Source: a virus (Duplodnaviria; Caudoviricetes). Taken from it: a DNA stretch of 60,096 bases. The stretch spans positions 1 through 60,096 of the IMG/VR virus record IMGVR_UViG_3300020450_000024, one strand, 5' to 3'. Position numbers and translations under genes: made by a program. The notes beneath the pieces are model-generated. The model saw nothing but the letters and a program-made list of their open reading frames with translations, did no database searches and was not told where the DNA came from. Positions 5,529 through 42,505 of this stretch are shown here, in pieces (the first letter of the stretch is position 1; the number at the start of each line of letters is the position of its first letter).

Positions 5529-6533
5529 TTGTTTAAAAAAGCGGCTGTATTCACGGACATACACTTTGGACTGAAGTCTAATTCAAAAGTCCATAATGAT
5601 GACTGTGAAGAATTTGTAGATTGGTATATTGAACAAGCCAAAAAAGAAGGTTGTGAAACAGGCATCTTTATGGGTGACTGGCACCACAATAGAAATAGTT
5701 TAAATGTTGTAACAATGGATTATTCTATCCGTTGTTTAGAAAAGTTAGGAAAAGCATTTGAACAGTTTTACTATTTTCCAGGCAACCATGATTTGTATTA
5801 CAAAGACAAACGTGATGTGCATTCTGTAGAATATGCAAAGCACATTAAAGGAGTAACTGTTGTAAATGAAATTTATGAAAAGGATGACGTTTGTTTAGTT
5901 CCTTGGTTGGTTGGCGAAGAATGGAAAAAAATTCCTAAGATTAAAGCAAAATATATGTTTGGACATTTCGAACTTCCAAACTTTTATATGAACGCAATGG
6001 TTCAAATGCCTGACACAGGTGAATTAAAGTCTGAACATTTTGTTAATCAGGAATATGTGTTTAGTGGACACTTTCATAAAAGACAAACACACGGCAACGT
6101 AACATACATTGGTAATCCTATGCCTCACAACTATGCTGATACGTGGGACGATGAACGTGGTATGATGATCTTTGAATATGGAGGCAAGCCAAGATACTTG
6201 AACTGGCCAGATTGTCCAAAGTATAGAACAATTAAATTAAGTGAACTTATAGATAGAAAAGATGAAATTATTGGCAGTAAAACTTATCTAAGAGTTACAC
6301 TTGATATTGATATTAGTTTTGAAGAAGCAAGTTTTATTAAAGAAAACTTTATCAATGAATACAAGTGTAGAGAAATAACTTTACTTCCAAGTCAACAGGT
6401 AGATGAGATTAACACAGATATTGATATTACAAAATTTGAAAGTGTTGATCAAATTGTTACACATGAGATAGATGCAATAGATTCTGACAATTATAATAAA
6501 CAGAAACTATTAGAAATATATGGCGAATTATGA
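5529..6533 (+). CDS. gp47: Recombination endonuclease subunit (Mre11/SbcD-like metallophosphoesterase)
   Basis: TDIHFG, GDWHH, GNHD, GHFE and SGHFH motifs; TTG start with GAGG RBS. Confidence 0.92.
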   Translation: MFKKAAVFTDIHFGLKSNSKVHNDDCEEFVDWYIEQAKKEGCETGIFMGDWHHNRNSLNVVTMDYSIRCLEKLGKAFEQFYYFPGNHDLYYKDKRDVHSVEYAKHIKGVTVVNEIYEKDDVCLVPWLVGEEWKKIPKIKAKYMFGHFELPNFYMNAMVQMPDTGELKSEHFVNQEYVFSGHFHKRQTHGNVTYIGNPMPHNYADTWDDERGMMIFEYGGKPRYLNWPDCPKYRTIKLSELIDRKDEIIGSKTYLRVTLDIDISFEEASFIKENFINEYKCREITLLPSQQVDEINTDIDITKFESVDQIVTHEIDAIDSDNYNKQKLLEIYGEL

Positions 6534-8305
6534 TAAAGATAAAAGACTTAACCGTTAAAAACTTTATGAGTGTGGGTAACCAAACCCAAGCAGTTGACTT
6601 CAGCAACAGACAACTTACATTGGTGCTAGGAGAAAACTTGGATCAAGGAGGAGATGATTCAGGCTCACGTAACGGTACAGGTAAGACCACAATCATCAAC
6701 GCACTATCTTATGCGTTGTATGGTGTGGCGCTGACAAACATTAGAAAAAACAATTTAATTAACAAAACTAACAACAAAGGAATGTTAGTTACACTTAACT
6801 TTGAAAAAGACAATACAAAATATAGAATTGAAAGAGGGCGTGGCCCTAACGTATTAAAGTTCTTTGTAGATGAAGAAGAACAAGAACTTACAGATGAATC
6901 GCAAGGAGATAGTCGTAAAACACAGGAGACACTTGATCAACTATTGCAAATGAGTCATGATATGTTTAAGCATTTAATTGCATTAAACACATACACAGAA
7001 CCATTCCTTGCAATGAAGCCAAATGATCAACGTGCTATTATCGAACAACTATTAGGTATTACAATACTGTCTGAAAAGGCAAACGTATTACGTGAACATA
7101 TGAAAGTTACTCGAGATAGTATTACAGAAGAAAATGCAAAAATAAATGCACAACAAGATAGCAATGAACGTGTTAAGGAAAGCATTGAAAGTTTAAAATT
7201 AAAATTAAGTGCTTGGGAACAACAACGTGAAACAAATATTAAAAAACTTGAAACTGGTATTGATGAGTTAGAACACATAGATATTGATACAGAAATAAGC
7301 AATCATGAAAAATTACAATCTTGGAATGAAACAGAAAAACATCAACGCAATCTAATCAAAGAACAAGCAACACTAGAAAGTGCATTAGGACAAACAGATA
7401 AACGTCTTGAAAAGGTAAGCAAAGAACTAGATGATCTTGAAGATGCAAAATGTTATGCTTGTGGACAGGATTTGCCTGATGAAAAAGTTGACGAAATACA
7501 GAACAAACTGCAAACAGAATATGGTGAAACTACAACATACTTAATGGAAATAAATGAAAAGGCAGAGAAAGTAAAAACAAAACTAGCAAACATTGGAGAA
7601 CTTTCTGATAAGCCTAGCACGTTCTATGAAACTGCCAAAGAAGCATATGACCACAGAAGCAATATTGAAAACTTAAAAGACGCATTAAAAAGAGCAAAAG
7701 AAGATAAAGATCCTTATACTGAACAAATTGAAGAATTACAAAATACTGCAATCCAAGAAATAAATTGGGACGAAGTAAACAAACTAACAAATCATAAAGA
7801 TCATCAAGAGTTTTTATACAAACTTCTCACAAACAAAGATAGTTTTATACGTAAGAAAATTATTGATCAGAACCTCGCATATTTAAATAATAGACTTACA
7901 TACTATCTTGATCGTCTTGGTCTTCCACATTCTGTGGTATTTAAAAATGACCTAGCAGTTGAAATAACACAGTTAGGTCAAGACCTTGACTTTGACAATT
8001 TAAGTAGAGGTGAACGTAATAGACTTATACTTGGATTAAGTTGGGCATTTAGAGATGTCTGGGAAGGACTATATCAAAACATTAACTTATTATTTGTTGA
8101 TGAACTTATTGATAGTGGTATGGATACTGCTGGTGTTGAATCTAGTTTAGCAGTTCTTAAGAAGATGGGGAGAGAAAGAGATAAAAACATTTACATCATT
8201 TCTCATAAAGATGAATTACAAGGTAGGGTAAACAATGTATTGAAGGTCATTAAAGAAAATGGCTTTACAAGTTATGCTAACGATGTAGAAGTAGTGGAAC
8301 AGTGA
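6530..8305 (+). CDS. gp46: Recombination ATPase subunit (Rad50/SbcC-like)
   Basis: Walker A NGTGKTT, coiled coil with zinc hook CYACG, signature LSRGE, Walker B LLFVDE, IISH. Confidence 0.93.
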   Translation: MIKIKDLTVKNFMSVGNQTQAVDFSNRQLTLVLGENLDQGGDDSGSRNGTGKTTIINALSYALYGVALTNIRKNNLINKTNNKGMLVTLNFEKDNTKYRIERGRGPNVLKFFVDEEEQELTDESQGDSRKTQETLDQLLQMSHDMFKHLIALNTYTEPFLAMKPNDQRAIIEQLLGITILSEKANVLREHMKVTRDSITEENAKINAQQDSNERVKESIESLKLKLSAWEQQRETNIKKLETGIDELEHIDIDTEISNHEKLQSWNETEKHQRNLIKEQATLESALGQTDKRLEKVSKELDDLEDAKCYACGQDLPDEKVDEIQNKLQTEYGETTTYLMEINEKAEKVKTKLANIGELSDKPSTFYETAKEAYDHRSNIENLKDALKRAKEDKDPYTEQIEELQNTAIQEINWDEVNKLTNHKDHQEFLYKLLTNKDSFIRKKIIDQNLAYLNNRLTYYLDRLGLPHSVVFKNDLAVEITQLGQDLDFDNLSRGERNRLILGLSWAFRDVWEGLYQNINLLFVDELIDSGMDTAGVESSLAVLKKMGRERDKNIYIISHKDELQGRVNNVLKVIKENGFTSYANDVEVVEQ

Positions 8306-8709
8306 TATTGGATAAGATAAAAGCACGTGGTGAAGAAATGGCTCCTTTAGAAGGACATGATAGATTACAATATCTTATTGACATTGCTAGAGAAGTAGAA
8401 CCTTTACCAGACAACGATAAGATAGATGAAAATAAAATTAGAGGTTGTGCAAGTAATCTGTGGGTAGTTGGTAAAATAAATGAAGATGGAACTATGTCAT
8501 ATAAGCACGATGCAGATGCTTGGATAACAAAAGGCACTGCAAAAGTTTTAGTAGATTTGCTTAATGGTGAACATCGAAGTGCAATAGCAGATTTAACATT
8601 AGAAAGTTTTGAAGGACTTGGTATCAGAAATTTACTTACAATGCAACGGCAAGTTGGTTTTGGCAGTCTAGTAGAAAGAATGATAGCCATAGCAAAGATC
8701 AATGGATGA
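8302..8709 (+). CDS. sufE: SufE-family Fe-S cluster sulfur-transfer protein (auxiliary metabolic gene)
   Basis: DRLQYLIDIA...ENKIRGCASNLW (acceptor Cys)...DADAWITKG...LGIRNLLTMQRQVG. Confidence 0.85.
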   Translation: MILDKIKARGEEMAPLEGHDRLQYLIDIAREVEPLPDNDKIDENKIRGCASNLWVVGKINEDGTMSYKHDADAWITKGTAKVLVDLLNGEHRSAIADLTLESFEGLGIRNLLTMQRQVGFGSLVERMIAIAKING

Positions 8710-8914
8710 TAATCACGACAAATTAGTTAAAGCATACTTAGAATATTTCAAGGCACATGAACAGTACATCAAGACTGGTGGCATACGTCCACGTCGTGAA
8801 ACACGCAGATGGCTTAGAGAAATACGTGATCTTGCCAAAATACGCATGAATGAAGTGCAAGACAGTTACGTAAACCGTAGAGAAGATTCCAAAAAAGACG
8901 AGCAGGACAATTAG
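8702..8914 (+). CDS. Small basic helical protein, possibly Hc1/histone-H1-like DNA-binding
   Basis: 70 aa; YLEYFKAHEQY..GG..PRRETRRWLREIRDLAKIRMNEVQ resembles the Hc1-like two-helix family. Confidence 0.5.
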   Translation: MDDNHDKLVKAYLEYFKAHEQYIKTGGIRPRRETRRWLREIRDLAKIRMNEVQDSYVNRREDSKKDEQDN

Positions 8915-8932
8915 ACCTTGGTAAGTATCCAT

Positions 8933-9358
8933 ATGCAATGGACTTACAAAGGAAAAATAGTAGAAGAATTACCCCTTGGTTGTGAAGCCTTTGTATATCT
9001 TATTACAAATACAACCAATGGACGTAAGTACATCGGCAAAAAACTCGCTAAATTCAAAAAGACTCGCCCACCACTCAAGGGCAAGATAAACAAAAGAAGA
9101 AGCAAAGTAGAAAGTGACTGGAAGGACTATTGGGGTTCTAATGATCACTTAAAAGAAGACGTAGACAAATTAGGCACTGAAAAGTTTACTAGGGAAATAT
9201 TATATATTTGTCCTAGCAGAGGCGTAGCAAGTTATTTAGAGGCAAGGGAACAATTCGAAAGAAAAGTCTTAGAAACTGATGATTACTATAATGGCATTAT
9301 AAACGTTAGAGTAGGCGGCTCAAAAATTCTTAAAGAAGCACTTAAAGGCTTAAAATAG
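8933..9358 (+). CDS. Stand-alone GIY-YIG nuclease-domain protein
   Basis: FVYLITNTTNGRKYIGKK (GIY-YIG), YWGS, YLEAREQF (catalytic Glu) and YYN. ATG at 8933 lies 5 nt after TAAGTA with no SD. Confidence 0.85.
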   Translation: MQWTYKGKIVEELPLGCEAFVYLITNTTNGRKYIGKKLAKFKKTRPPLKGKINKRRSKVESDWKDYWGSNDHLKEDVDKLGTEKFTREILYICPSRGVASYLEAREQFERKVLETDDYYNGIINVRVGGSKILKEALKGLK

Positions 9359-9770
9359 CAACACTGTTTGGTCGGAGTAGTTCGACTCACGTTGAGGTCA
9401 CACGGATCTTGTGATCAGATTCTCGTGCGTTGCAAGGTTGATACTAACTTAGGTATTAAAAGATCGTGGCTCTGAGAAAAAGCAACCACACCGTTAATAT
9501 ATTTTGCTTAACAAGGATATATTAATGTTCCGTAACTTATGCGAAGGCTAAGGTAGGGAGTTGACGGGTTACCGCTTCCGTACATATTATTATGTAATCC
9601 TTTTTGTTAAGATGGGACGCTTATCTCACATGATGGCTTTCTTACTTTGCCCGGCAACGGGCGAAGTATGGCTCAACTATCTACATGATAGCAGTTGCTT
9701 ACGCAACTTATTGTTTCACAGATATAGTGTTTGAGCGATAGCGAAAACACAGTTGATCTTTAGATCAACT
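9358..9770 (+). ncRNA. Putative large structured ncRNA (or structured cis-element) of unknown family
   Basis: ~410 nt with no ORF of 60 aa or more; more than 12 manually found helices, many with G-U pairs, a GCAA tetraloop and a pseudoknot (see findings). Confidence 0.65.
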
Positions 9771-9772
9771 TT
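9751..9772. terminator. Palindromic hairpin between converging units, possibly a bidirectional terminator
   Basis: AGTTGATC-TTTA-GATCAACT, directly abutting the stop codon of the 60-aa minus-strand ORF. Confidence 0.5.
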
Positions 9773-9953
9773 AAACGTCCTTTAAATAATCATTAGGCAC
9801 AAGTTTTACTTCTGTGTTTATTTGATTAACGGTTCCTGTATTATGTTTTGCAGTGATAATACTATCCCTTGAAAAATAGAAGCCTAAATCTTCGGCTTTC
9901 TTCATAAATTCAAGAAATGCACTTTCTAATTCAACAACTTCTTTTTTGTTCAT
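9771..9953 (-). CDS. Hypothetical protein (60 aa)
   Basis: Protein-like composition; AGGT just before the ATG; TAAATA on - strand at 9984-9989. Confidence 0.55.
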   Translation of the reverse strand: MNKKEVVELESAFLEFMKKAEDLGFYFSRDSIITAKHNTGTVNQINTEVKLVPNDYLKDV

Positions 9954-10040: not shown

Positions 10041-10691
10041 ATGAAAGTACACCAAATAATTTACGAATCTACAAAAACACCCTTAAAAGAGAAGCCTGCA
10101 AGTGGGTTGGGGAACGTTGCACGTAAGGTAGGTGCTAAGGTTTTGGCTAAAGTTGGCGCAAAAAACGCCGCGGCCGGCATGGCCGGTAAGGTAGATGCGG
10201 CAGATAAAGCCAACGCACTATTCACGGATTTCAGAGCATATCTTGGACAAGTAGGTGAAAAATACGGTAATGCAGTTGATTCTGCTAGTTTACGTGACTT
10301 TTTAACTACTAAAAAGATGCCTACACAAAACATACCGCAAGACGGTGTGCTTACTAAAAAGCAAATTGATCAAGCAATTATGAAGTCAGTACAGGATTCA
10401 TACAGAGGCAAAGGCGGTATTCCAAACCAACCAGCAGGTCAAAAAGGTGCTCCTGCTAAAGGACAAGCACAAGGACAACAAGCACAAGGACAAGCGGCTG
10501 GTAACGTAGGCGGTGGTGCTCCTGCACAACAACAACAAGGTACAGGTTCAGCACAAACACCCGCTGGTAAGGCTCCGCCAACTAAAAACGGATCAACAGT
10601 AGGTAGTGCAAAAAGCATTCCACCAAGCATACAGAAACAATTAGATCAAATGAGTGCTGGTGAGAAAAAACAATTAGCGGGAATGATATAA
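10041..10691 (+). CDS. Hypothetical virion/internal head protein, Ala/Gly/Gln-rich
   Basis: 216 aa under a late promoter; N-terminal MKVHQIIYE; low-complexity QGQ linker. Confidence 0.6.
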   Translation: MKVHQIIYESTKTPLKEKPASGLGNVARKVGAKVLAKVGAKNAAAGMAGKVDAADKANALFTDFRAYLGQVGEKYGNAVDSASLRDFLTTKKMPTQNIPQDGVLTKKQIDQAIMKSVQDSYRGKGGIPNQPAGQKGAPAKGQAQGQQAQGQAAGNVGGGAPAQQQQGTGSAQTPAGKAPPTKNGSTVGSAKSIPPSIQKQLDQMSAGEKKQLAGMI

Positions 10692-12886
10692 TGAAAATTA
10701 CTGAAGTAAACCAATTTCCAAAATCAAATAGAACTGCACAAATACTTACTGAAGGTTATAAAGATCTTACAGAAACGCAAAGAGTATATCTTGGCAGATG
10801 GGAAAAGGAACTTTGGCCGTTATTAGAAGAATTCAAAAAGGTTTCAGAAGCAAGTTTAACTGCTGACGAGATCCAAGCAATATTCCAAGGTGCAGAACAA
10901 AGAAGTGTTGCAGGTGGACAAAACAAAACTGCATTAGGTAAAGTAGGAAGTGCGGCAGGAGCCATTGCAAAACTTCCAGTAGACATTGCAAAGAAAGTAG
11001 ATGCTAAAATAAATGAACTTGGCAGAATGGCTCAGAATGCTGGTCCAGTTAAAAACATGGATCAAAAGTTTGACGAACTTAAAAAGAAAATTGAAGCAGA
11101 AAACTCAGACAGCAAGATTGTACAAGGTATTAAAAAAGTAAGTGACTGGGCAAAAGAAAATCCAGGCAAGGCAAGTATTGCCGTTGGTATCCTTACAACT
11201 GTGGCGGCATTTGCAGGTGGACCAATGGGTGGTGCGGCCGCTGGTTTGATTTTACGTTCAACAAAAGATTTATTACAAGGTGAAAAACTTTCAACAGCAG
11301 TTGGTAAGTCAGTTAAAACAGCGGCATATGGTGCTCTTGCTGGTTTGGCAATACAAGGCTTAACCGACAACATGGTTGACAACATTGCAACAGGTAGTGA
11401 AGCAGAAGCAGACGCTATGCTAGATGGTTTCAGAAAAGCCAACTTCCAAGATGCTGTCGATAGTGCAACAGCCAAAGCAGGATTTGATGCAGGTGTACTT
11501 GACGGTGCTCAGAATTTAAAAATGTCAGGTAACATTAACGGATTCTTTTACAACTATGATGTAACAATGACTAAAGAGCAATTAGCAACTTACAAAGAAT
11601 TGACTAATGCCTACTATGCGGCAGATACATTTAGTCCAGAATATTATAAAGCGGCAGGAGAGTTACACGGATGGTTATCAACAACACAGGATCAAAATGA
11701 AAGTCTAACTGCACTTGCAAAAACAATTAGAAACATTCCAAGAGATGTTTTATCAAGTGATCAATTAGAAGCGGCAACGGCTGTGTTAGACAATGCAGAC
11801 GAAGCCATTGAAAAAATTATAGACATTGGTGGACCAGCCGCGGCGGCGGCACAAGGTGCTATGCAAACAGTTGATGATAATGCAAAGGAAAAGATCAAGG
11901 CTAAACCAATTGATCCAAAAGAAAAAGAGCAATTAGAATTATCATTAAAAGGTGGCGAAGACAATCCAGCAGATGACAAGGTTGCAGTAAGAGGAACTGA
12001 ATCAGTTTCTTATGCAGATGCATACGAACACTTGTACGAACAGTACTTGGCTGAAGCACCGGCGGCAACAGCAACAGCAGATGCACAAGGCGAATTACCA
12101 TTAAACAATCCTAATACACTAGGTGCTAAAGCAGGTAGAGGTATAAAAGGTGCCTTAGGTGCAGTAGGCGGCGCAATTAAAAAAGGTGCTAGTGCAGTAG
12201 GCGGTGCAGTAAAATCAACCGCAAGAGAATTAGGACAAAAAATTACAGCGAAAAAATTAAATTCTGAATGGGAAAAGATGGGTAAACCAACTGACAGTGG
12301 TACAATTTATAACATACTTTCTTCATTTGGTATGACAGACGATGACATCAAAGCAGTAGGTACAGAAGCCAATGTTAAAATAGATTCTTCAGGACCTGCT
12401 AAACCTGTGCGTACAGATGCAACACCAGGAACAACTGCTGGACAAAAACCAGCAGACGATGACACACCGCCAGGAGTTCCATCAGACGGAACAGGTGATG
12501 CACAAGGTGGAACAGGTGATGCACAAGGTGGCGGAGACGCACCAAAAGGTGCACCGGCAGGACAGGCAAAAGATCCTAAGAACGATGGTCCATTTGATAT
12601 GCAAAAACAAACTGGTACAAACGCAGGTGTTGTGTCGGGCGACTTTGAATGGAAAGGCGCACAATGGATCAATAATAAAACAGGTAAAATTGCCGACAAG
12701 GCGACAGCCGCAAAACTTGGAAATCCTAAATTAGCAGAGTTGGCACGTGAGATTGAAAAAGCAGGAGTTGCCGATTTAGTCAAAGATCAAATAAGTGCTC
12801 CTGGAGTAAAAGCAGGTACACCTCAAGCCGCAGTGGCTAAGAAAGTAGTAAGCAAAGCCGCACAGGCTCAAGGCGCTACTGCTTAA
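10691..12886 (+). CDS. Hypothetical virion protein, possible internal/ejection protein with glycine-zipper hydrophobic helices
   Basis: 731 aa; N-terminal MKITEV; hydrophobic ASIAVGILTTVAAFAGGPMGGAAAGLIL and AAYGALAGLAIQGL. Confidence 0.55.
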   Translation: MKITEVNQFPKSNRTAQILTEGYKDLTETQRVYLGRWEKELWPLLEEFKKVSEASLTADEIQAIFQGAEQRSVAGGQNKTALGKVGSAAGAIAKLPVDIAKKVDAKINELGRMAQNAGPVKNMDQKFDELKKKIEAENSDSKIVQGIKKVSDWAKENPGKASIAVGILTTVAAFAGGPMGGAAAGLILRSTKDLLQGEKLSTAVGKSVKTAAYGALAGLAIQGLTDNMVDNIATGSEAEADAMLDGFRKANFQDAVDSATAKAGFDAGVLDGAQNLKMSGNINGFFYNYDVTMTKEQLATYKELTNAYYAADTFSPEYYKAAGELHGWLSTTQDQNESLTALAKTIRNIPRDVLSSDQLEAATAVLDNADEAIEKIIDIGGPAAAAAQGAMQTVDDNAKEKIKAKPIDPKEKEQLELSLKGGEDNPADDKVAVRGTESVSYADAYEHLYEQYLAEAPAATATADAQGELPLNNPNTLGAKAGRGIKGALGAVGGAIKKGASAVGGAVKSTARELGQKITAKKLNSEWEKMGKPTDSGTIYNILSSFGMTDDDIKAVGTEANVKIDSSGPAKPVRTDATPGTTAGQKPADDDTPPGVPSDGTGDAQGGTGDAQGGGDAPKGAPAGQAKDPKNDGPFDMQKQTGTNAGVVSGDFEWKGAQWINNKTGKIADKATAAKLGNPKLAELAREIEKAGVADLVKDQISAPGVKAGTPQAAVAKKVVSKAAQAQGATA
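12488..12550 (+). repeat. In-frame 21-bp tandem repeat (GTGDAQG x2 plus a degenerate third copy)
   Basis: ggaacaggtgatgcacaaggt at 12488-12508 and 12509-12529. Confidence 0.85.
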
Positions 12887-16289: not shown

Positions 16290-18026
16290 ATGAGTTGGAA
16301 GAGATATTTTACACCAGTTGAACAAGGAACAGGAACTGGAAATAATTACAGTCCAATAAATGGACGTGGGCAGGGACCAGGACCTGCAAGGTCAAACTAT
16401 TCATCATATCTTCCAGATGTATATGTAGGAAGTCCAAACCGTATTGAAAGATATGGACAATATAATGTAATGGACAACGACAGTGAGGTAAATGCCGCAC
16501 TAGATATACTTGCAGAATTTTGTTCACAAGAGAATGAACAAAACAGAACATCATTTAAAATTAACTTTAAACAAAAAGCAACTAACAGTGAAATAACTGT
16601 TTTACAAAAATACTTACAGCAATGGTGTAAATTAAACGATTTTGGAACAAAAATGTTCCGTATGTTAAGAAATGTATTCAAGTACGGTGATGCATTTTTT
16701 ATTAGAGATCCAGAAACTAAAAAGTGGTTTCATGTTGATCCAGCAAAAGTTACACGTATTATTGTAAATGAATCAGAAGGCAAGAAGCCAGAACAATATA
16801 TCATAAGAGATGTAAACTTAAACTTCAGAGAACAAGTTGCAACAACACCTTATACCACTAATGGTAACGTTACAGGAGGCGGTGACGGATACTTAACAGG
16901 CGGTGTAAGAGGTATGGTTGGAAACGCACAACAACAAAGCGGAAGTAGATTTGGCACAGAACAAAGAGAAGTAGCCATTGATGCAGAACACATTGTACAT
17001 TTAAGTTTAAGCGAAGGACTAGACAACAATTATCCTTTTGGTAATTCATTATTAGAAAGTATTTTCAAAGTTTACAAACAAAAAGAATTATTAGAAGACG
17101 CAATTATTATTTACAGAACACAAAGAGCACCTGAACGTAGAGTGTTTTACATTGACGTAGGTAATATGCCATCACACCTTGCAATGCAATTTGTTGAACG
17201 TGTTAAAACAGAAATACATCAAAGACGTATTCCTAGTTCATCAGGTGGTTCAACAAACGTAATTGACAGTGCATACAATCCTTTATCAACAAATGAAGAT
17301 TACTTCTTTCCGCAAACAGCAGAAGGACGTGGATCTAAAGTTGAAACATTACCAGGTGGTACTAATTTAGGTGAGATTGATGATCTTAAATATTTTACAA
17401 ACAAATTAATTAGAGGCTTACGTATTCCTAGTTCATATTTGCCAAGTGCGGCACAAGATGAAGGACAAAGTCAGTTTAATGACGGCAGAGTAGGTACAGC
17501 ATATATTCAAGAATTAAGATTTAACAAGTATTGTGAACGTTTACAAAACCTAGTAACAGAAGAATTTGATCAAGAATTCAAACGTTACTTACTAGAAAAG
17601 GGTGCAAATGTTGACTTTGCTATGTTTGACTTAGAATTACAGACTCCACAAAACTTTGCAAGTTACAGACAAAGTGAATTAGATAATCAACGTATTGGAA
17701 CGTTTACACAAATACAGGCAATTCCATTTATATCAAATAGATATGCAATGAAACGTTTCTTAGGTATGACAGCAGAAGAACTTGCAGAGAACGAACGTTA
17801 TTGGAGAGAAGAGAACGATGAAAATCTTAAGGCTCCTCCAACAGACGCCGCAGGTGAAATGCGTGGCGTTGGCGTAAGTGGTGCAGGTATTACTGCTGAC
17901 TTGGGTGGAACTGAAGAAGTAGATCCAGAAGCAGAGCCAGATCCAGTAGCAGGCGGAGAAGCAACACCTCCAGACACAGCAACAGGTCAACCACTAGGCG
18001 GTGGTGGCGGTACTCCACAGCAATAA
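16290..18026 (+). CDS. gp20: Portal protein
   Basis: LEDAIIIYR..RAPERRVFYIDVGNMP...EDYFFP...GRGSKVETLPGG.NLGEIDDLKYF. Confidence 0.95.
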   Translation: MSWKRYFTPVEQGTGTGNNYSPINGRGQGPGPARSNYSSYLPDVYVGSPNRIERYGQYNVMDNDSEVNAALDILAEFCSQENEQNRTSFKINFKQKATNSEITVLQKYLQQWCKLNDFGTKMFRMLRNVFKYGDAFFIRDPETKKWFHVDPAKVTRIIVNESEGKKPEQYIIRDVNLNFREQVATTPYTTNGNVTGGGDGYLTGGVRGMVGNAQQQSGSRFGTEQREVAIDAEHIVHLSLSEGLDNNYPFGNSLLESIFKVYKQKELLEDAIIIYRTQRAPERRVFYIDVGNMPSHLAMQFVERVKTEIHQRRIPSSSGGSTNVIDSAYNPLSTNEDYFFPQTAEGRGSKVETLPGGTNLGEIDDLKYFTNKLIRGLRIPSSYLPSAAQDEGQSQFNDGRVGTAYIQELRFNKYCERLQNLVTEEFDQEFKRYLLEKGANVDFAMFDLELQTPQNFASYRQSELDNQRIGTFTQIQAIPFISNRYAMKRFLGMTAEELAENERYWREENDENLKAPPTDAAGEMRGVGVSGAGITADLGGTEEVDPEAEPDPVAGGEATPPDTATGQPLGGGGGTPQQ

Positions 18027-21759: not shown

Positions 21760-22923
21760 ATGTCAGAACTTTTAGAAAGTAAATGGCAGGATACAAAAGT
21801 TGCGTTGCTCGAAGGCCTAACAGGCAATAAAAAGTCTGTGATGTCCGCTACTCTAGAAAATACTAGAAAGTATTTGGCAGAGGCGGCTACTGCAGGTGCC
21901 ACAGGCGCGGGTAATGTTGCAACTCTTAACAGAGTTATCCTTCCAGTAATTAGACGTGTTATGCCAACGGTTATCGCTAACGAAATCGTAGGTGTACAAC
22001 CAATGACTGGTCCAGTTGGACAAATCCACACACTAAGAGTAAGATATGCAGATTCATTTGATGACGTAACAGCAGGCGAAGAAGCATTATCACCTTTCCA
22101 AATTGGTTTAGGTTACTCAGGTGGCGGATCCACTGATAAAGCAGACGCAACAGCAAACCTAGAAGGTACTGCTGGTAAGCGTTTAAGCATTCAGATCTTA
22201 AAACAAACAGTTGAAGCGAAAACTCGTAAATTGAGTGCTCGTTGGACTTTTGAAGCGGCTCAGGATGCACAAGCACAGCAAGGTATCGATATTGAAGCAG
22301 AAATTATGGCGGCATTAGCCCAAGAAATTACTGCTGAGATCGACCAAGAAGTTCTTAACTCATTAAGAACTTTAGCAGGTGCGGCTGAATCAGACGTTCA
22401 ATACGATCAAAATGCTGTATCAGGTACTGCAACGTTCGTGGGTGATGAACACGCGGCGTTGGCTGTAATGATCAACAGAGCGGCAAACAAAATTGCACAA
22501 CGTACAAGACGTGGTGCTGGTAACTTTGCAGTGGTATCACCGCATACGTTAACAGTTCTTCAGTCAGCAACAACTTCAGCGTTCGCAAGAACAACTGAAG
22601 GTACGTTCGAAGCACCAACTAATACTAAATTAGTAGGTACTTTAAATGGTGCAATGAAAGTTTACGTTGACGCTTATGCATCAGATACTACTGATGTATT
22701 AGTAGGGTACAAAGGAACATCAGAAGCAGATGCGGCGGCGTTCTACTGTCCTTACATTCCATTAATGTCAAGTGGCGTTGTACTTGACCCATCATCTTTC
22801 GAACCAGTTGTGTCTTTCATGACTAGATACGGATATGTTGAGTTAAACAATACTGCTTCTTCATTAGGTAATGCGGCAGACTACCTAGCAAGAGTTAGTG
22901 TAGCAAACGTAACATTCTCGTAA
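21760..22923 (+). CDS. gp23: Major capsid protein
   Basis: RRVMPTVIANEIVGVQPMTGPVGQI, AKTRKLSARWTFEAAQD, EITAEIDQE, FYCPYIPL, FMTRYG. Confidence 0.97.
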   Translation: MSELLESKWQDTKVALLEGLTGNKKSVMSATLENTRKYLAEAATAGATGAGNVATLNRVILPVIRRVMPTVIANEIVGVQPMTGPVGQIHTLRVRYADSFDDVTAGEEALSPFQIGLGYSGGGSTDKADATANLEGTAGKRLSIQILKQTVEAKTRKLSARWTFEAAQDAQAQQGIDIEAEIMAALAQEITAEIDQEVLNSLRTLAGAAESDVQYDQNAVSGTATFVGDEHAALAVMINRAANKIAQRTRRGAGNFAVVSPHTLTVLQSATTSAFARTTEGTFEAPTNTKLVGTLNGAMKVYVDAYASDTTDVLVGYKGTSEADAAAFYCPYIPLMSSGVVLDPSSFEPVVSFMTRYGYVELNNTASSLGNAADYLARVSVANVTFS

Positions 22924-23730: not shown

Positions 23731-23836
23731 ATACTTTTGTCATGATAGTGTGCCACATAATTTTTGGTGGACTTATGGGGACAAAACCCCGTAGCAGATA
23801 GAACCTGCATCGGACTTCTAAAAGAGGAGAAAAAAA
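23728..23836 (+). promoter_or_regulatory. Late promoter plus structured 5' leader
   Basis: GATAAATA, then hairpins CCAC/GTGG, TATGGGG/CCCCGTA and GCAG/CTGC before the GAGGAG RBS. Confidence 0.55.
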
Positions 23837-24283
23837 ATGGGTAGACCACTTAATAAAAAGTTTTTCGGAGAGCCAACTGCGGGTGGCAACGAAATCAAAG
23901 TAGAATTTCACAACGGTTCAGCAGTTGTGGAAGGACATATCGTTAAGCAATTAGGATCAAAAAAATTCAGAGTAGCAACAATTGGTGCTGACGACACTGA
24001 ATATGATCGTTTCTTAACAACAGGAAAATTAGCATCAGCATTGACTGGTACTGAAATGGCAATCACTGTAAAAGGTGATGATTCAGAAACATATCAAGTT
24101 TCTAAAATCGCTGGTAGAAAAGCAACTATAATTGCACCAGACGGTACAGGATCAAATGCTTTATCAGGTACGTCAGTAGCATGGAACTTCTCAACTGCAA
24201 CCAATGACGGTGCGGCGCAAGTAGAAGAAGCAGGTGACGACGATACAGCAGGTAACGATGATGACGATTTCGCAAATGCGTAA
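23837..24283 (+). CDS. Virion structural protein (possible head decoration)
   Basis: MGRPLNKKFFG N-terminus; strong RBS; late promoter; downstream of gp23. Confidence 0.6.
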   Translation: MGRPLNKKFFGEPTAGGNEIKVEFHNGSAVVEGHIVKQLGSKKFRVATIGADDTEYDRFLTTGKLASALTGTEMAITVKGDDSETYQVSKIAGRKATIIAPDGTGSNALSGTSVAWNFSTATNDGAAQVEEAGDDDTAGNDDDDFANA

Positions 24284-35829: not shown

Positions 35830-38800
35830 ATGGCCGAATTTAAACTAGATAGGATACGTTTTAGATGGAAGGGTGCATGGTCTTCAACTACTGCATACAT
35901 CAAAGATGACATTGTAAGTTATGGTGGTAAAGTTTACGTTTGTATATTTGGCCACACTTCAGTAGATGAATCAGTACCAGGTACAGACTTTTATACAGAT
36001 GCATTTGATTCAACACAACCTAAATGGACACAAATGCTTGATGGTGTATCTTGGAAAGATACATGGCAACCAGGCATATACTATAAAGTAAATGACATTG
36101 TCAAGTATGGCGGTAATTTATATCAATGTATTATTGGTCATGATTCTGCAAGTTATTCAGCACCTACTTCAGCAACAACGTATAATGTCATAACAGGATT
36201 TGACACAGTAAATTCTCCAGAAGACAGAGACTTTGTTGTTACTGTTGAAGCAGGAAGTCCTACACAGGCAGATGGTTACTTCTTCTTAGATGATGTACAA
36301 GCACCAACATTAAGTTTTGTTAAAGGAAAAACTTATACATTTGATCAATCACCAGGATCTAACGAAACATACAATAGTAAAATTCATCCATTCTATTTTA
36401 GTATTACAAGTGATGGAACAAACACCACAGGTACATATTATGAAACAGGTGTTACATATGAGTTAGATGGTACAGTAGTAAATAGAGCAAATTACGAAAC
36501 AGGATTTGCGGCGGCATCTAGTAGAAAAGTTGTTATACAAGTAGGCGCAACTGCTCCTGCAACACTTTATTATTTTTCAAATAGCAGTGCAAACAGAGGC
36601 GGAACTATTAATGTTGCAGAAGCGGCAGGTAATTTTTATCTTGCTGGCACAGAAAACAGAGTTTTAAGTTTAGTTGAAGGACACCAATACATATTTGATC
36701 AAACTGATAATTCAAATATTACATTTGGTGGACAGACACACCCATTAGTATTAAGTACATATTGGGACGGACATCACAATGGCGGATCAGTTTACGCAAA
36801 TGGTGTTACGTATCTATTAGACGGAAGTGTGGTAACACTTGCAAACTATCTAAGTGGATTTGCAACTGCTTCAGATAGAAAAGTAAAATTAATTGTTCCT
36901 AATAATCCGCCAGACAAAATTTATTACTATGATTATAATCAGGCTGACACAGGAAATAAACACAAGAATCAAGGTCAGTACTTACATTTATATGATAATG
37001 GATCGATAGGTGATACTGATATTGGTAATTGGAAAATTTTATCTGCATCAGACAACTGGAGATTTGAATGGCAACCACTTACAATTTACAGAGTAGGTGA
37101 CACAATTAGTTACGGCGGAATATTATATAGATGTGTAACTGCACATACAAGTTCAAATACTGTAACTGGATTAGAATTAGATATTGCTAAATGGAATACA
37201 GTAATAGAATCAGACAGTTGGAAAGGTGACTGGACACCTGGTACAAGATATTTCAATCATGACATTGTAAGATATGGTGGAGTAACAAAAAGATGTATTA
37301 CAGGACACGTTGCACAGGCAGATGACAACCTAGGTATTGAACCTGATGACGCTAAATGGGAAACATTAATTGATGGTATTGAATACATTGGTGAATGGAA
37401 AGCAAAAGAAGATTTAAATGTTACTGCATACGCAGGTACTAGTGCAACCTGTGTACACACATTTACAGCAGATGACAACGGTACTATATTTAAATATACA
37501 ACTGATGGTACTGTAGATACTGCCTTAACTGCAAATAAAAATTACTATTTAAGATATGTTGACGCAACAAAAATTAGTTTCCATACTAATAAAGTAGATG
37601 CAGAGTTTGGTAGAAATGCAATTAGTTTCAATGGTGATTCAACAGGTGGACAAACACTTGAAGTAAGTAAAAAAATTAAAGTTGGAGACATTCTAAGATA
37701 TGGACCAACTATATTTAGATGTACTACTGCACACGTACCAGGAACAACATTTTCAACTCAGTTCCATAGCACATGGATTCCAGGATTAGGTTTTGAGAAT
37801 CAATGGCAAGATAGTATTACATATCAACCAGGTGATATTGTAACTTATGGAGGATACAGTTATACATCATTAACAGTAAACACTGCATCGGCTCCTAGTG
37901 CAAATTTATTAGCACAGGATACAGGTGATTGGGAATTATTAACACAAGGTTACAGACTAGGAGCACAATACAATCAAGATGCTTCAACACAAGATACTGC
38001 TAGTGATTGGGGTTCAACAACTGCATACAAGACTGGTGATGTTGTTAGACTAAATGGTCATGTGTTTATTGCATTACGTGATAGCACAGGAAGTGAACCA
38101 GATGACTCTTTAACAACTACAACTTATACAGTAACAGTTGGTGCTCCAGGTAATCCACCAGGCAACAAATATTACATAGATGGAAATTTATATCCGGATC
38201 TATCATTGGTTGAAGGAAACACTTATATCTTTAATCAATCTGATAGCACTAATAATAATCACCCAATTTATATTAGTACAAAGCAAAATGGTCATCATGT
38301 TGATAGCACATACAATTATTATACACCGGGCGTTGTTTATCACTTAGACGGAACAGATTATTTAAATCCACAAGATTATGACAGTGGATTTAATGCATCA
38401 ACAGTAAGATATGTAAAATTTACTGTACCAAGAGATGCATACAAACAAGTATATCCTGTTTGTGCAAACCATTCAGGTATGTATGAGAGTGGTGTATGGA
38501 ATACAATACAATCAGGAAACAACTGGCAAACTTTAATTACAGGTGATCACTGGAGAGATTTTTGGGTTGAGTCAGATCCAGTAACTTTATCTCCAACAAA
38601 CTATTTCTTAGGTGATGTAGTAACATACGAAGGAACATTGTATAGATGTGTTAAACGTCACACTGCAACGGCATCGGGTGCAAGACCAGATCTTGACATG
38701 GACTACACTCAAGAAAATTTCTGGACAAAAGTTATACAAGGTGGATTAACAAACGTATTACAATACAGAGGTGATATAAGAACACATGACGGTACCGAAA

Positions 38801-41800
38801 CTGTAAGACAAGGAATTGGTAATCCAGGTGACGTATTAAAAGTTATAAACACTATTCCTAGTTATGAAGATTTAGGTGCAGTAGCAAATGTATTTTATGT
38901 TGCACCAAATGGTATAGATAATACTAGCACAGGTAGAGGATTATCTGATTCAGCACCATTTAAAACAGTAAAATATGCTTGTGATTATATTTTCCAAGAC
39001 GAAGCAAGTAGAGCCCCTGCAACTATTTTTGTTAAGACAGGACTTTACAAAGAACAATTACCTATTAAGGTTCCGGCAAACGTTGCTATCGTAGGAGATG
39101 AATTACGTTCTACTAGAATAGAACCGGCAAGTAGTGCATTTGAAGACCAAGATATGTTTAGAGTACGTAACGGTTGTGGTATTAGAAACATGACACTTGC
39201 AGGACTAAAAGGAAGTTTAGGAGACCCAGACACATTCCAAACAAAACGTATTACAGGTGGAGCCTTTGTTGCTCTTGATCCAGGTGACGGTCCAGGTGAT
39301 ACAAGTGTATGGGTAACAAATAAATCAACTTATGTACAAAATGTATCTACATTTGGTGAACAATGTATTGGTTTAAGAATTGACGGTGACTTACATAATG
39401 GTGGTAACAAATCTGTTGTTGCTAATGACTTTACACAAATTTTACAACAAGGTATTGGCTTCTGGTGTAGCGGAGAAGGTAAAGCAGAATTAGTATCAGT
39501 CTTTACATATTATTGTCATATAGGTTATCTATGTACTGACGGTGGTAAAGTTAGAGCAACAAATGGTAACAACTCATATGGTGACTTTGGATCAGTTGCG
39601 ATAGGATTTGATAATTCAGAAAGTCCAATCTCAGGTAAAGTAGACAACTATTCAAAAGAAGCAACTATCAGTCAAGTGTTTAATGATGAAAACCAATTGT
39701 TCACAGTTGGATATGACAACGCAGGAAATCATTATACAAGTGGTAGTGTAACAATAACAGGTTCAGGACAAAACGCCGCGGCTAAGGTTACAGAATTTAG
39801 AGACAACGGTATTATGGAAGTACGTGTGCTTGATCCAGGAGATTCAAGTATTGCAGGTGGTTCCGGTTATACTTTTGTAAACAACAGAGCACAACTTGGT
39901 GACAGTTTAAGTATTAACATTGCAAACTCTGATGTACAAAATGAAAATTATTATCTAAACAAACTTTTAACTATTGTTGAAGGTGAAGGTAGAGGACAGT
40001 ATGGTTACATTACAAGTTACGATTGGAACACAGGTGGAGTAATTTCAGGAACTGTAACAAGTGGTACTGACGCCACTAGAGTTACAGGTACTTACACAGG
40101 CAAATTAGGAACAAGTAGTAACGCACTTGCAACTGAGCCAACAGTAACAATCAATATTGATGGCACTGGTGATGCAACAATTACAGTCACAGATGTTGGT
40201 AAAGACAACCTAGCAGACGATATCATTACATACACTAACACAGACTTTGGTGGACAAGGTGCAGACATTACATTTAAAATTACTTCTGTAAGTTTAGGAA
40301 ATAAAAGAATGACGATTGCAAGACAGTCAGATGGACTTGCAGGTTTCGAACACTTATTACCTGGACAACCTATTAAGACTGTATTAGATGAAACTACTAG
40401 ATATCAAATCACTCCAAGAATTGATGTGTCAGAGCCACCATACAATGATACAAACAATAATGTGCCTTCAGGAACAGATATTAAATCAATGGCGTATCAA
40501 AAACTTGGCTCTAACAGATTAACTGTTGCTGTTGGTAATAATAGTATTATATGGTCAACTGATGGTACAACTTGGAACAATGCGGCAAGTTATACAAATT
40601 TACCTTACATTGCTGTTGCAGAAGGAAATAATTTCTTTGTAGCATTAGATAGTGCAGGTAATATTAGAAAATCAGGAGATGGTACAAACTGGTCAAGTGC
40701 AGGTACTTTACCTTCCGGAACATATAATAGTTTAGTATATGGTGATGGATATCACGTTGCTATTGCTGATAGTGATTCAAATGCTTACGTAAGTACAAAC
40801 AATGGTGATACATGGACAACTGTATCTGCAGGATTTAGTAACGTTAAGTTTCTTGCTTATGGAAATGGTAAATGGATTGCAATGAACCAAGCAGGTGATA
40901 CTTGGGAAAGTACTGATAATGGTAGTACTTGGACACAAGGTCCAGACTTAGGTAATGTACAATATGATGTTGCAAGTTTATGTTTTGGTAATGGTAGATT
41001 TGTAGCGGCGGCTTATGACTCACCAAATGATATATCAACTGTTAACAATAAATTCTTTTACAGTTTAACAAATAAAAGTACTGCGGCAGGTAGCACAGTA
41101 TGGTTAATGGGTGAAGATACTCCAGCGGCTGATAACTTTTATGTAAGTTATGCACAAGGAGTATTTGTGGCTATAAGTGCAAATGGTCAAGTATGTGTAT
41201 CTCCAGATGGTAATTTATGGAATAATAAAAATTCATTAGGCGGTGCATACAACGGAATATTTGCAGGTAGTTCAAGACAAGGCGGTCCGCAATTCTTCCC
41301 AACACAAAACGGAACTGTATCTCAATTAACAACTATTGAATATGGTGCCACTGCAAGACTTATTGCACAGGTAAAAAGTAATAGAATAAGTGAATTTACT
41401 ATTGTTGAAGCAGGATCAGGTTACACAGGATCAGCACCAACATTAAGTATTATAGATCCTGATAAACAATCATCAGTTACTTATGAAGTTAGATTAGGAA
41501 CAGGTGTATTAGGTCCATTAGAATTTACAAATAGAGGTACTGGTTATCTTAACATTGGTGTTACAGTAACTGGTGATGGATATAAAGATGAATTCCAACT
41601 AGGTGAAAAATTAGTTGTAAAAGAATTGTCAAGAGAACCTGGACCGGGTGATAACTTATACATCACAGGTATTAATGATGTTGTCTATAGTATTCAATCA
41701 GTTGCAGGATTGGCTGGTTCTGAACCTAACTTAACTGCAACATTAACAATAAGTCCAACATTAGATAGAGCAGAATCACCAAACCATGAAGAACAGTTTA

Positions 41801-42456: not shown

Positions 42457-42472
42457 GAATTTACGATAATGA

Positions 42473-42478
42473 TAAATA
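42473..42478 (+). promoter_or_regulatory. Late promoter (GATAAATA)
   Basis: Intergenic TAAATA before 42506. Confidence 0.7.
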
Positions 42479-42505
42479 TATTAAAGAAAGCGATAGGTTT
42501 CAAAA

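What the first reader, a model, noticed from the sequence alone, without database searches (positions are those of the whole stretch)
8922..9770. Minimal GIY-YIG nuclease coupled to a ~410-nt pseudoknotted RNA: candidate new protein-RNA system
Seen: the 141-aa GIY-YIG ORF is only the catalytic domain plus a Lys/Arg insert (KFKKTRPPLKGKINKRRSK). Dense pairing starts on the last base of its stop codon. Domain 1: GCAAC 9358-62/GTTGC 9429-33 encloses GTCGGA/TTCGAC (9371-86) and GGTCACA/TGTGATC. Then hairpins at 9438-59 and 9466-89, and a long hairpin 9494-9525 whose loop CTTAA (9507-11) complements TTAAG (9607-11). That pseudoknot would stack on helix GTTCCGT 9527-33/ATGGGAC 9612-18, which encloses a junction (AAGG/CCTT, GGGAG/CTTCC, CGG/CCG, TACATA/TATGTA). 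An 11-bp stem with a GCAA tetraloop follows (9643-68). G-U pairs and the GNRA loop favour RNA on the + strand. Established: I-TevI/Seg homing GIY-YIG enzymes get their specificity from C-terminal DNA-binding domains, which are absent here, and nuclease-plus-cis-RNA pairs are known (IscB/omegaRNA, TnpB/reRNA). Inference: the late transcript may encode a ribonucleoprotein in which the RNA scaffolds, guides or inhibits the nuclease. An origin/R-loop primer RNA is the main alternative.
Basis: partly seen in the sequence, partly recalled or inferred. Interest (0 to 1): 0.88.

Follow-up and report, generated by a model that had tools for sequence, protein, structure and literature searches.

The report
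New structured RNA beside phage nuclease
Right after a small DNA-cutting enzyme gene, abundant marine T4-like phages carry a large, intricately folded RNA of a family not catalogued before, and what it does is still unknown.

Summary
Window 9358 to about 9715 (+) is a conserved, non-coding, highly structured RNA. On 31 sequences under 96% identical, 103 modelled pairs are 88.9% paired, against 75.7% when shuffled and about 40% when slid; 60 pairs show compensatory changes. One reader helix (9527-33/9612-18) is not supported. No Rfam family matches.

The RNA always follows the GIY-YIG gene: 87 of 89 and 113 of 120 RNA-first loci, with the other 9 too short to judge. gp46 is equally constant upstream, so synteny alone can explain the linkage.

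The protein is not a truncated homing enzyme. It is a full-length member of a large family of about 140 aa (PF19835, phrog_447) that occurs without this RNA in other phages.

One new and unexplained feature: two single-stranded boxes flanking a GNRA hairpin carry hexamers that are identical to each other in 240 of 240 loci, although eight variants exist.

Best reading: a new large phage ncRNA made at the 3' end of the operon and binding one co-evolving partner twice. An RNA-guided nuclease is neither shown nor excluded.

The parts
8702..8914 (+). p70: small basic protein (70 aa) directly upstream of the GIY-YIG gene, conserved in most related loci
   Evidence: ORF. No Pfam or PHROG match. Of 170 unique upstream ORFs, 145 are 50-90 aa and align as one family. 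Atlas neighbour clusters carry PF07432 Hc1 on 10-18% of members; this is a lead only.
8933..9358 (+). Stand-alone GIY-YIG nuclease gene (141 aa; alternative TTG start at 8918)
   Evidence: PF19835 positions 1-123 of 123, E 2.7e-34. phrog_447 positions 5-143 of 148. AF2 model with pLDDT 96.7. Best PDB fold is the I-TevI catalytic domain 1LN0, prob 0.99.
9358..9433 (+). 5' domain: closing helix S1 (9358-62/9429-33) around hairpin S2 (9371-76/9381-86) and S3 (9388-91/9424-27) plus S4 (9396-9402/9410-16)
   Evidence: helices 1-4: 93-100% paired, with 2, 2, 4 and 4 pairs changed on both sides.
9438..9459 (+). Hairpin S5 with an invariant CTAAC loop
   Evidence: columns 129-133/140-145 (AU 28/GC 3; UA/GC/AU). 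The loop is invariant.
9465..9489 (+). Hairpin S6 (GTGG/CCAC) with a conserved purine-rich loop
   Evidence: helix 7: 95% paired, 3 of 4 pairs compensatory.
9493..9526 (+). Helix A, first stem of pseudoknot 1; its loop holds the 5' strand of helix H_L
   Evidence: 74% paired on the MAFFT alignment, where some rows are out of register; 7 of 10 pairs compensatory. 9500:9519 shows five pair types.
9507..9611 (+). Long-range helix H_L (9507-9515 with 9603-9611), second stem of pseudoknot 1; encloses the core junction
   Evidence: 96-97% paired, 6 of 9 pairs compensatory.
9532..9572 (+). Pseudoknot 2: 9532-9536 pairs with the loop 9568-9572 of hairpin S_b
   Evidence: helix 3: 100% paired, 4 of 5 pairs compensatory. 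It holds the top mutual-information pair 9533:9571.
9550..9602 (+). Helix P_x (9550-9553 with 9599-9602), stacked under H_L
   Evidence: 100% paired, 3 of 4 pairs compensatory, at least 6 pair combinations.
9556..9596 (+). Hairpins S_b (9556-60/9575-79, plus 9565-66/9573-74) and S_c (9581-86/9591-96)
   Evidence: helices 12, 13 and 15: 94-100% paired.
9625..9633 (+). Box R1: CTC followed by the hexamer ACATGA (9628-9633); single-stranded in all predictions
   Evidence: the hexamer is identical to that of R2 in 240 of 240 loci, across 8 variants.
9643..9668 (+). Hairpin S_d, 11 bp with a GCAA (GNRA) loop, between the two boxes
   Evidence: helix 16: 96% paired. The loop is GCAA, GAGA or GGTA in relatives.
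9680..9688 (+). Box R2: TCT followed by the hexamer ACATGA (9683-9688)
9693..9717 (+). Hairpin S_e (9693-9708; the loop is TTCG in most relatives) plus a T-rich tail: probable intrinsic terminator and 3' end of the RNA
   Evidence: + strand terminator-like site. Searches show covariation (UA/GC; GC/AU).
9728..9750 (+). Hairpin S_f with a GNRA loop (GATA); its motif is kept across RNA subtypes. Role unknown. It lies after the + strand terminator.
   Evidence: helix 18: 93% paired, 5 of 7 pairs compensatory. Seen in subtype 2.
9751..9770 (-). Hairpin S_g: intrinsic terminator of the convergent - strand ORF 9771-9953
   Evidence: - strand hairpin followed by a T-run. helix 19: 97% paired, 5 of 8 pairs compensatory.

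Best explanation
Window 9358 to about 9715 (+) encodes a previously uncatalogued, phage-specific structured non-coding RNA of about 360 nt. It has at least 14 helices, two pseudoknots and GNRA/UUCG loops.

What is shown:
- It is conserved.
- It covaries as an RNA on the + strand.
- It is not coding.
- It matches no Rfam family.
- It is always the last element of the gp47-gp46-(SufE)-p70-GIY gene run.

What is inferred:
- It is transcribed with that operon and ends at its own hairpin terminator (9693-9717), like a 3'-UTR-derived RNA.
- It acts as a folded RNA that binds one co-evolving, phage-encoded partner at two sites. Those sites are the twin single-stranded boxes R1 and R2, which flank the GNRA hairpin.
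- The nearest candidate partners are the products of the same operon: the GIY-YIG nuclease, or the small basic protein p70. On this reading the RNA works as a protein-binding scaffold or decoy, not as a programmable guide.

My odds: about 0.9 that this is a genuine new structured RNA; about 0.4 for the two-site partner-binding mechanism; about 0.2 that the partner is the GIY-YIG protein.
For: Conservation:
- The 412 nt match 100% down to 69% in GIY-selected loci.
- In the GIY-first set, 66 of 80 loci have an nhmmer hit, 7 more carry the subtype-2 core, 6 have under 300 nt downstream, and 1 (L069) lacks it. That is 73 of 74 loci that can be judged.

Structure:
- 103 pairs, 88.9% paired against 75.7% shuffled; covariation score 0.383 against 0.159 (0 of 500 shuffles reach it); slid controls 39-45% paired.
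- both pseudoknots are supported.

Strand and coding:
- 232 G:U cells against 63 A:C cells in the modelled pairs, and no frame open through the region.
- GNRA and UUCG loops read correctly only on the + strand.

End of the RNA: a terminator-like hairpin with a T tail on the + strand.

Twin boxes: the two hexamers are identical in 240 of 240 loci, with 8 variants, and no complement in cis.

Virus-specific: the subtype-2 core motif occurs in only 2 GTDB contigs, both in one MAG.

Precedent for two-site binding: T4 EndoII binds as a tetramer to two DNA substrates (PMC2764454; only the title and start of the abstract were seen, in the listing).
Against: - No binding, expression ends or strand were measured. 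The RNA-library data are contigs without strand, and such libraries may hold DNA.
- Linkage to GIY equals linkage to gp46, so it is no evidence of a functional tie.
- The GIY family works without this RNA elsewhere.
- In L068 an IMPDH-like gene sits between GIY and the RNA.
- The 5' half of the RNA is not alignable between subtypes although GIY stays 72-79% identical (median, against the window's GIY).
- Six-letter boxes are short. Their identity could reflect a DNA-level site or a trans nucleic acid instead.
Confidence: 0.4

Rival explanations
1. The RNA is an independent ncRNA gene. The GIY-YIG protein is a domesticated Seg-type nuclease that acts on DNA and sits beside a conserved RNA gene, as SegB sits among T4/T6 tRNA genes. 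The tie is at the DNA level (preferred inheritance or amplification of the RNA gene) or purely syntenic. The twin boxes could then be its DNA sites.
For: - SegB lies in the tRNA cluster, cuts inside tRNA genes and is significantly co-localised with tRNAs. It drives amplification of the neighbouring RNA genes and has been 'repeatedly domesticated' by myoviruses (PMC13096335: abstract, section 10 and passages read; PMC2330249: listing only).
- GIY is far better kept than the backbone: Melnitz GIY is 71% identical against 28% for gp46, and it sits at another locus there.
- The family occurs in varied contexts.
Against: - The protein has no C-terminal DNA-binding domain.
- The gene is not sporadic, as selfish homing genes are: 73 of 74 GIY-first loci that can be judged carry the RNA, and all 200 RNA-first loci that can be judged have the gene.
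- The GIY tree largely follows RNA subtype: 8 changes against a mean of 50 when shuffled. This fits long co-inheritance rather than hopping.
Confidence: 0.3
2. A cis-acting 3' UTR. The fold controls stability, termination or translation of the nuclease (operon) mRNA and has no function in trans.
For: - It lies at the 3' end of the operon, directly after the stop codon in the window.
- Terminator-like hairpins are present.
- One RNA-library contig spans the stop codon, 9236-9454.
Against: - About 360 nt with two pseudoknots and near-invariant junction nucleotides is far more than stabilisers or terminators need.
- The RNA start is 3-80 nt from the stop in relatives, and a whole gene is inserted in L068.
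Confidence: 0.12
3. An RNA-guided or RNA-targeted nuclease. The RNA gives the minimal GIY-YIG domain its target specificity, with the twin boxes as short paired guides.
For: - The RNA is never found without the gene.
- The boxes are a variable element inside a constant scaffold.
- The protein lacks a DNA-binding domain.
Against: - No guide of usual length exists.
- The locus is syntenic and not at a transposon end.
- Close relatives of the protein lack the RNA.
- A full-text search for 'GIY-YIG' + 'RNA-guided' + 'noncoding RNA' from 2021 on found 7 papers, and none of the 6 titles and abstract starts listed describes such an enzyme.
Confidence: 0.08
4. A replication origin or R-loop primer region acting mainly as DNA.
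For: - It sits at the boundary of the replication and structural modules, at a point where genes converge.
- An AT-rich linker of variable length follows hairpin S_e.
Against: - G:U pairs outnumber A:C, and the GNRA/UUCG loops point to RNA folding.
- There is no turn in cumulative GC skew at 9-10 kb.
- There is no iteron array, only two boxes.
Confidence: 0.05
5. A known RNA in disguise (a group I intron remnant, tRNA-like element or other Rfam family), or a decayed C-terminal domain of the nuclease.
For: Phage GIY-YIG genes often sit in group I introns (recalled).
Against: - No Rfam hit falls in 9359-9770 at E up to 10 in the window. There was no hit at all at E up to 0.1 in five related loci searched whole.
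- No tRNA or tmRNA.
- No exon downstream on the same strand.
- Helices covary as RNA, and no frame is conserved.
Confidence: 0.03

Closest known systems
SegB (GIY-YIG) with the tRNA gene cluster of T4/T6
   Same: A Seg-type GIY-YIG gene in a T4-like myovirus lies directly beside structured RNA genes. That association is statistically established for SegB (PMC13096335).
   Different: - SegB has a DNA-binding C-terminal part; this protein is the catalytic domain alone.
- The RNA here is one large pseudoknotted molecule, not tRNAs.
- The gene is fixed in the clade, not sporadic.
HEARO / omegaRNA with IscB, and reRNA with TnpB (OMEGA systems)
   Same: A large structured RNA is encoded next to a small nuclease gene on the same strand (recalled; the review PMC13565253 was seen only in search listings).
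   Different: - The nuclease fold is different (GIY-YIG).
- There is no long guide and no transposon ends.
- The position is syntenic.
- There is no Rfam match.
T4 endonuclease II (DenA)
   Same: A stand-alone GIY-YIG enzyme of about 140 aa. EndoII binds two DNA substrates as a tetramer (PMC2764454, listing). Relatives of the window protein lie after the ribonucleotide reductase genes in Melnitz and S-H38, where I recall denA lies in T4.
   Different: - No sequence match to any PDB chain.
- No endonuclease II entry is among the listed fold matches; the top fold is I-TevI.
Large phage-associated ncRNAs of unknown function (GOLLD, ROOL; recalled)
   Same: Large, complex, covariation-supported RNAs found in phage genomes.
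   Different: No match to those Rfam models. Different size and architecture. The twin boxes are not described for them, as far as I recall.

Membership tests
PF19835 SegE-type GIY-YIG domain / phrog_447 (protein) | Full-length profile match above the curated cut-off | tested here: met
   118.5 bits against a cut-off of 25, positions 1-123 of 123. phrog_447 E 1.3e-37.
PF19835 SegE-type GIY-YIG domain / phrog_447 (protein) | GIY-YIG fold with conserved catalytic-type residues | tested here: met
   Invariant Y22, Y33, G35, E103 and N120, with R87 nearly invariant, in 44 sequences. The top fold match is the I-TevI catalytic domain. The assignment of roles to these residues is recalled.
Two-domain free-standing homing endonucleases (SegA-G, I-TevI type) | C-terminal DNA-binding domain joined by a linker | tested here: not met
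   The protein is 141 aa, all of it covered by the catalytic-domain profile. Most of the 150 listed representatives are 130-150 aa.
Two-domain free-standing homing endonucleases (SegA-G, I-TevI type) | Sporadic presence or absence among close relatives | tested here: not met
   All 200 RNA-first loci that can be judged have the gene. Different loci in distant phages do suggest past mobility.
OMEGA-type RNA-guided nucleases (IscB/omegaRNA, TnpB/reRNA) | Variable guide segment of about 15 nt or more at one end of a conserved scaffold | tested here: not met
   The alignments show no such segment. The only variable element is a pair of identical 6-7 nt boxes.
OMEGA-type RNA-guided nucleases (IscB/omegaRNA, TnpB/reRNA) | RuvC/HNH nuclease, at the end of a transposon | tested here: not met
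   GIY-YIG fold. Fixed syntenic slot after gp46.
OMEGA-type RNA-guided nucleases (IscB/omegaRNA, TnpB/reRNA) | RNA binds the nuclease and directs cleavage | not testable with these tools
   Needs biochemistry.
Group I intron | Match to the covariance model of the catalytic core | tested here: not met
   No Rfam hit falls in 9359-9770 at E up to 10. There was no hit at all at E up to 0.1 in five related loci searched whole.
Group I intron | Interrupts a gene, with exons on both sides on the same strand | tested here: not met
   Upstream ORFs end with stop codons, and the next gene is on the opposite strand.
tRNA / tmRNA | Cloverleaf or tmRNA detected | tested here: not met
   ARAGORN finds 0 genes in the window.
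Intrinsic terminator (hairpin S_e 9693-9717) | GC-containing hairpin followed by a T-run on the transcribed strand | tested here: met
   Consensus scan. The stem covaries. Termination itself was not measured.

The most novel reading that the evidence does not exclude
The RNA and the minimal GIY-YIG domain form a ribonucleoprotein. The RNA supplies target recognition, and its two identical, lineage-specific boxes act as a pair of short guides or recognition elements for a two-site (repeated or symmetric) nucleic-acid target. This would be the first RNA-programmed GIY-YIG nuclease.
Probability: 0.1. Interest if true: 0.95.

Novelty: new variant of a known kind. Interest (0 to 1): 0.78.

Why it matters
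- Large RNAs whose folds are this well supported by covariation are rare, and several earlier ones turned out to be ribozymes or nuclease partners.
- This one is widespread. The linked protein gave 8000 scored clusters, the scoring cap.
- It sits in abundant marine T4-like phages that probably have very large genomes. CheckV rates the 60-kb window as 17% complete, and a 335-kb contig carries the motif.
- It gives a defined structure for experiments: two pseudoknots and a conserved 3' module.
- It also shows an unusual signal, two boxes that change in parallel. That points to a specific partner which can be looked for.
- If the partner is the adjacent nuclease, this would open a new class of RNA-dependent nucleases. 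If not, it is still a new family of phage regulatory or structural RNA.

Tried and rejected
Searches that found nothing:
- tRNA/tmRNA scan: none.
- Rfam at gathering and at loose thresholds: nothing in the region.
- blastn of the RNA against 50,697 phage records: no match at E up to 1.
- PDB by sequence, with the single protein and with a profile: no hit.

Structure:
- RNAalifold's 115-118/428-431 pairing has invariant columns and competes with S1, which covaries. I dropped it.
- In one search, helices 6 and 17 scored low only because I placed the pairs by the window's register. One search shows both hairpins with other column pairs.

Twin boxes:
- A complement in cis: none at a conserved place.
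- Mimicry of the GIY start region: some loci share a 10-letter stretch, but the variants do not follow it.
- Enrichment elsewhere in the window: 3 matches against 6.3 expected.
- Exact-repeat length alone is not above chance. The signal is the parallel change.

Other tests:
- GC skew shows no turn at the locus.
- Model R1, built from subtype 1, did not find subtypes 2 or 3, nor anything in Melnitz, S-SRM01, S-H38 or phiN3 loci. For distant RNAs this is weak evidence.
- Read laying: no RNA-library contig covered 9786-9960. Depth is low and flat, and there is no strand or end information, so it says nothing on level or ends.
- Fold search did not list endonuclease II.
No supplements were needed.
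Full report
**What is in the window**

The window is a fragment of a T4-like myovirus. It carries the Gp20 portal (16290-18026) and Gp23 capsid (21760-22923) genes. CheckV rates the record as 17% complete.

The finding lies at the end of a + strand gene run:
- a gp47-like phosphoesterase (5529-6533)
- a gp46/SbcC-like ATPase (6530-8305)
- a SufE-domain ORF (8302-8709)
- a small basic protein, p70 (8702-8914)
- the GIY-YIG ORF (8933-9358)

After that come about 410 nt without a conserved ORF, then a small ORF on the opposite strand (9771-9953), then + strand genes again.

**The protein**

- The 141-aa ORF matches PF19835 (SegE_GIY-YIG) over the whole model (1-123 of 123, E 2.7e-34). It matches phrog_447 over 5-143 of 148.
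- A profile-free search of 1.84 billion representatives gave 2064 relatives at E up to 0.001. Most of the 150 listed are 130-150 aa.
It is conserved in a 44-sequence alignment (consensus KGK..KKR). It is modelled with pLDDT above 95 as a beta-hairpin.
- The best solved fold is the I-TevI catalytic domain (1LN0, prob 0.99, TM 0.68 on the target). No endonuclease II entry is among the listed matches, and no PDB chain matches by sequence.
- So this is a complete member of a large family of stand-alone GIY-YIG proteins, not a homing enzyme that has lost its DNA-binding domain.
- Relatives occur in cultured phages in other contexts with short downstream spacers:
  - Melnitz: 71% identical, after the ribonucleotide reductase genes, 148-nt spacer.
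  - S-H38: after nrdAB, 37 nt.
  - S-SRM01: 88 nt.
  - phiN3: 29 nt.
- Melnitz gp46 is only 28% identical to the window's. The GIY gene is therefore either unusually constrained or has moved between lineages.

**Conservation and linkage of the RNA**

- Starting from the protein, 80 IMG/VR loci were fetched; 587 candidates were confirmed in all.
- The 412 nt downstream match by blastn from 100% down to 69% identity.
- With an nhmmer profile, 66 of the 80 loci have a hit. Seven more carry a second, divergent subtype that I saw by eye and later captured with a motif. Six have under 300 nt of downstream sequence. One (L069) has coding sequence instead. That makes 73 of 74 loci that can be judged.
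- Starting from the RNA:
  - A 22-letter subtype-1 motif found 89 stretches. 87 have the GIY gene 306-394 nt upstream of the motif, and 2 are too short.
113 have the gene upstream and 7 are too short.
  - None of the 200 loci that can be judged lacks the gene.
- The same loci also have gp46 upstream wherever the sequence reaches. The linkage is therefore as well explained by conserved gene order as by a functional tie.
- In L068 an IMPDH/GMP-reductase-like ORF lies between the GIY gene and the RNA.

**Structure**

I aligned 31 sequences that are under 96% identical to one another. RNAalifold predicted 76 pairs, 41 of them with compensatory changes. Mutual information added pairs that RNAalifold cannot draw.

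My full model has 103 pairs in 19 helices:
- 88.9% of cells are paired, against 75.7% in shuffles and 39-45% when partners are slid.
- 60 pairs have changes on both sides.
- The covariation score is 0.383 against 0.159, reached by 0 of 500 shuffles.

Two pseudoknots are supported:
- Pseudoknot 1: helix A (9493-9502/9517-9526) crossed by the long-range helix 9507-9515/9603-9611.
- Pseudoknot 2: a new one, 9532-9536 with the loop 9568-9572. It is 100% paired and 4 of 5 pairs are compensatory.

Evidence that this is an RNA on the + strand:
- G:U cells outnumber A:C cells 232 to 63.
- The loops read GNRA or UUCG on the + strand only.
- No reading frame stays open through the region.

Hairpin 9693-9708 with its T-rich tail scores as a + strand intrinsic terminator. 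Hairpin 9751-9770 scores as the terminator of the convergent gene. The main RNA is therefore about 360 nt. A further conserved GNRA hairpin (9728-9750) lies between the two terminators.

**The twin boxes**

- On either side of the GNRA hairpin 9643-9668 lie two single-stranded boxes: CTC+ACATGA (9625-9633) and TCT+ACATGA (9680-9688).
- Across 149 unique 3' modules the two hexamers are the same in every row where both are aligned.
- A pattern that demands identity matched 240 of 240 loci with enough flank. Eight variants occur: ACATGA 181, GCATGA 27, AGATAA 15, ACATAA 9, ACGTGA 4, GCATAA 2, AGATGA 1, GTATGA 1. Further variants, again doubled, are seen in divergent loci.
- So the two boxes change in parallel, not in a complementary way.
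- I found no complementary segment at a conserved place, no enrichment of the box elsewhere in the window, and no tracking of the nuclease gene's start region.
- I read this as one co-evolving partner recognised twice: a protein dimer or tetramer, or a nucleic acid in trans. That is inference.

**Subtypes and range**

- The 3' module (box, hairpin, box, terminator) is shared by subtypes 1 and 2.
- The 5' half differs so much that a covariance model of the subtype-1 core does not find subtype 2.
- The subtype-2 core is almost invariant over more than 60 nt in 30 diverse loci.
- The quick GIY protein tree needs 8 changes of RNA subtype, against a mean of 50 for shuffled labels. Gene and RNA are therefore mostly co-inherited.
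- The subtype-2 motif occurs in only two contigs of 185,579 species genomes, both in one Neomarinimicrobiota MAG (335 kb and 153 kb). These are probably phage contigs binned with it.
- Contigs from four metatranscriptome studies cover the gene and the RNA at low depth, and one spans the stop codon (9236-9454). They carry no strand or end information, and such libraries may contain DNA.

**What it is not**

- Not a tRNA or tmRNA.
- Not any Rfam 15 family, including group I introns, HEARO, GOLLD and ROOL.
- Not coding.
- Not an intron, since there is no downstream exon.
- Not marked by a turn in GC skew.

**Explanations**

I am about 0.9 sure that this is a genuine new structured RNA. On how it works:

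| Reading | Odds | Comment |
|---|---|---|
| 3'-end-of-operon RNA that binds one co-evolving phage partner at the twin boxes | 0.4 | The operon's own products are the nearest candidates |
| Independent RNA gene with a domesticated Seg-type nuclease beside it | 0.3 | SegB is beside tRNA genes (PMC13096335) |
| cis-acting 3' UTR | 0.12 | |
| Replication origin | 0.05 | |
| Known family in disguise | 0.03 | |

Against the RNA-guided reading: there is no long guide, the locus is syntenic, and close protein relatives do without the RNA.

**Comparison and novelty**

- It works most like the known pairings of a nuclease gene with a structured RNA (SegB with tRNAs; IscB with omegaRNA). It meets the defining features of neither (see Membership tests).
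- A full-text search for 'GIY-YIG' + 'RNA-guided' + 'noncoding RNA' from 2021 on found 7 papers. None of the 6 titles and abstract starts listed describes an RNA-dependent GIY-YIG enzyme.
- Two broader searches for a description of such a phage RNA listed nothing relevant.
- These searches cover only the held library. Supplements were not consulted.

**Limits**

- There are no raw reads, so ends, strand and abundance are unmeasured.
- Alignments are MAFFT-based, and some rows are out of register in helix A.
- The covariation controls do not fully remove phylogeny.
- The GIY tree is a quick tree on 144 columns.

Noticed in passing
window 23753-23839 (+): Match to the Rfam freshwater-2 RNA (RF02980): 65 bits against a gathering score of 49.9.
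   Followed up: no
window 8702-8914 (+): p70 is a conserved basic protein of 65-72 aa, upstream of the GIY gene in most related loci. Atlas neighbour clusters carry the histone-like Hc1 family on 10-18% of members. It is a candidate nucleic-acid binder of the same operon.
   Followed up: partly
window 8302-8709 (+): A SufE-domain ORF (PF02657, E 5e-29) lies between gp46 and p70. It is present in only some related loci.
   Followed up: no
L068:4297-5328 (+): An IMPDH/GMP-reductase-like ORF (PF00478, E 2.4e-72) is inserted between the GIY gene and the RNA in one lineage.
   Followed up: partly
L295, L296 (GTDB MAG contigs of 335 kb and 153 kb): The only two cellular-genome contigs with the subtype-2 RNA motif sit in one Neomarinimicrobiota MAG. 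They are probably phage contigs binned with it, and they hint at a phage genome of about 335 kb.
   Followed up: no
L171 and L299 (Methylophilales phage Melnitz): The Melnitz GIY protein is 71% identical to the window's, while its gp46 is only 28% identical, and the gene lies after nrdB instead of after gp46. The gene is either highly constrained or was transferred horizontally.
   Followed up: partly
window 9728-9750 (+): A hairpin with a GNRA loop, whose motif is kept across RNA subtypes, lies after the + strand terminator and before the - strand terminator. Its role is unknown.
   Followed up: partly
window 35830-47929 (+): Two very large ORFs of 2208 and 1807 aa follow each other. Not examined.
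   Followed up: no
window 55276-57090 (+): A carbamoyltransferase ORF (PF16861 and PF02543) in a phage fragment.
   Followed up: no
window 10041-12886 (+): Two Ala/Gly/Gln-rich low-complexity proteins (216 and 731 aa) start the next + strand block. They have no Pfam or meaningful PHROG match.
   Followed up: no
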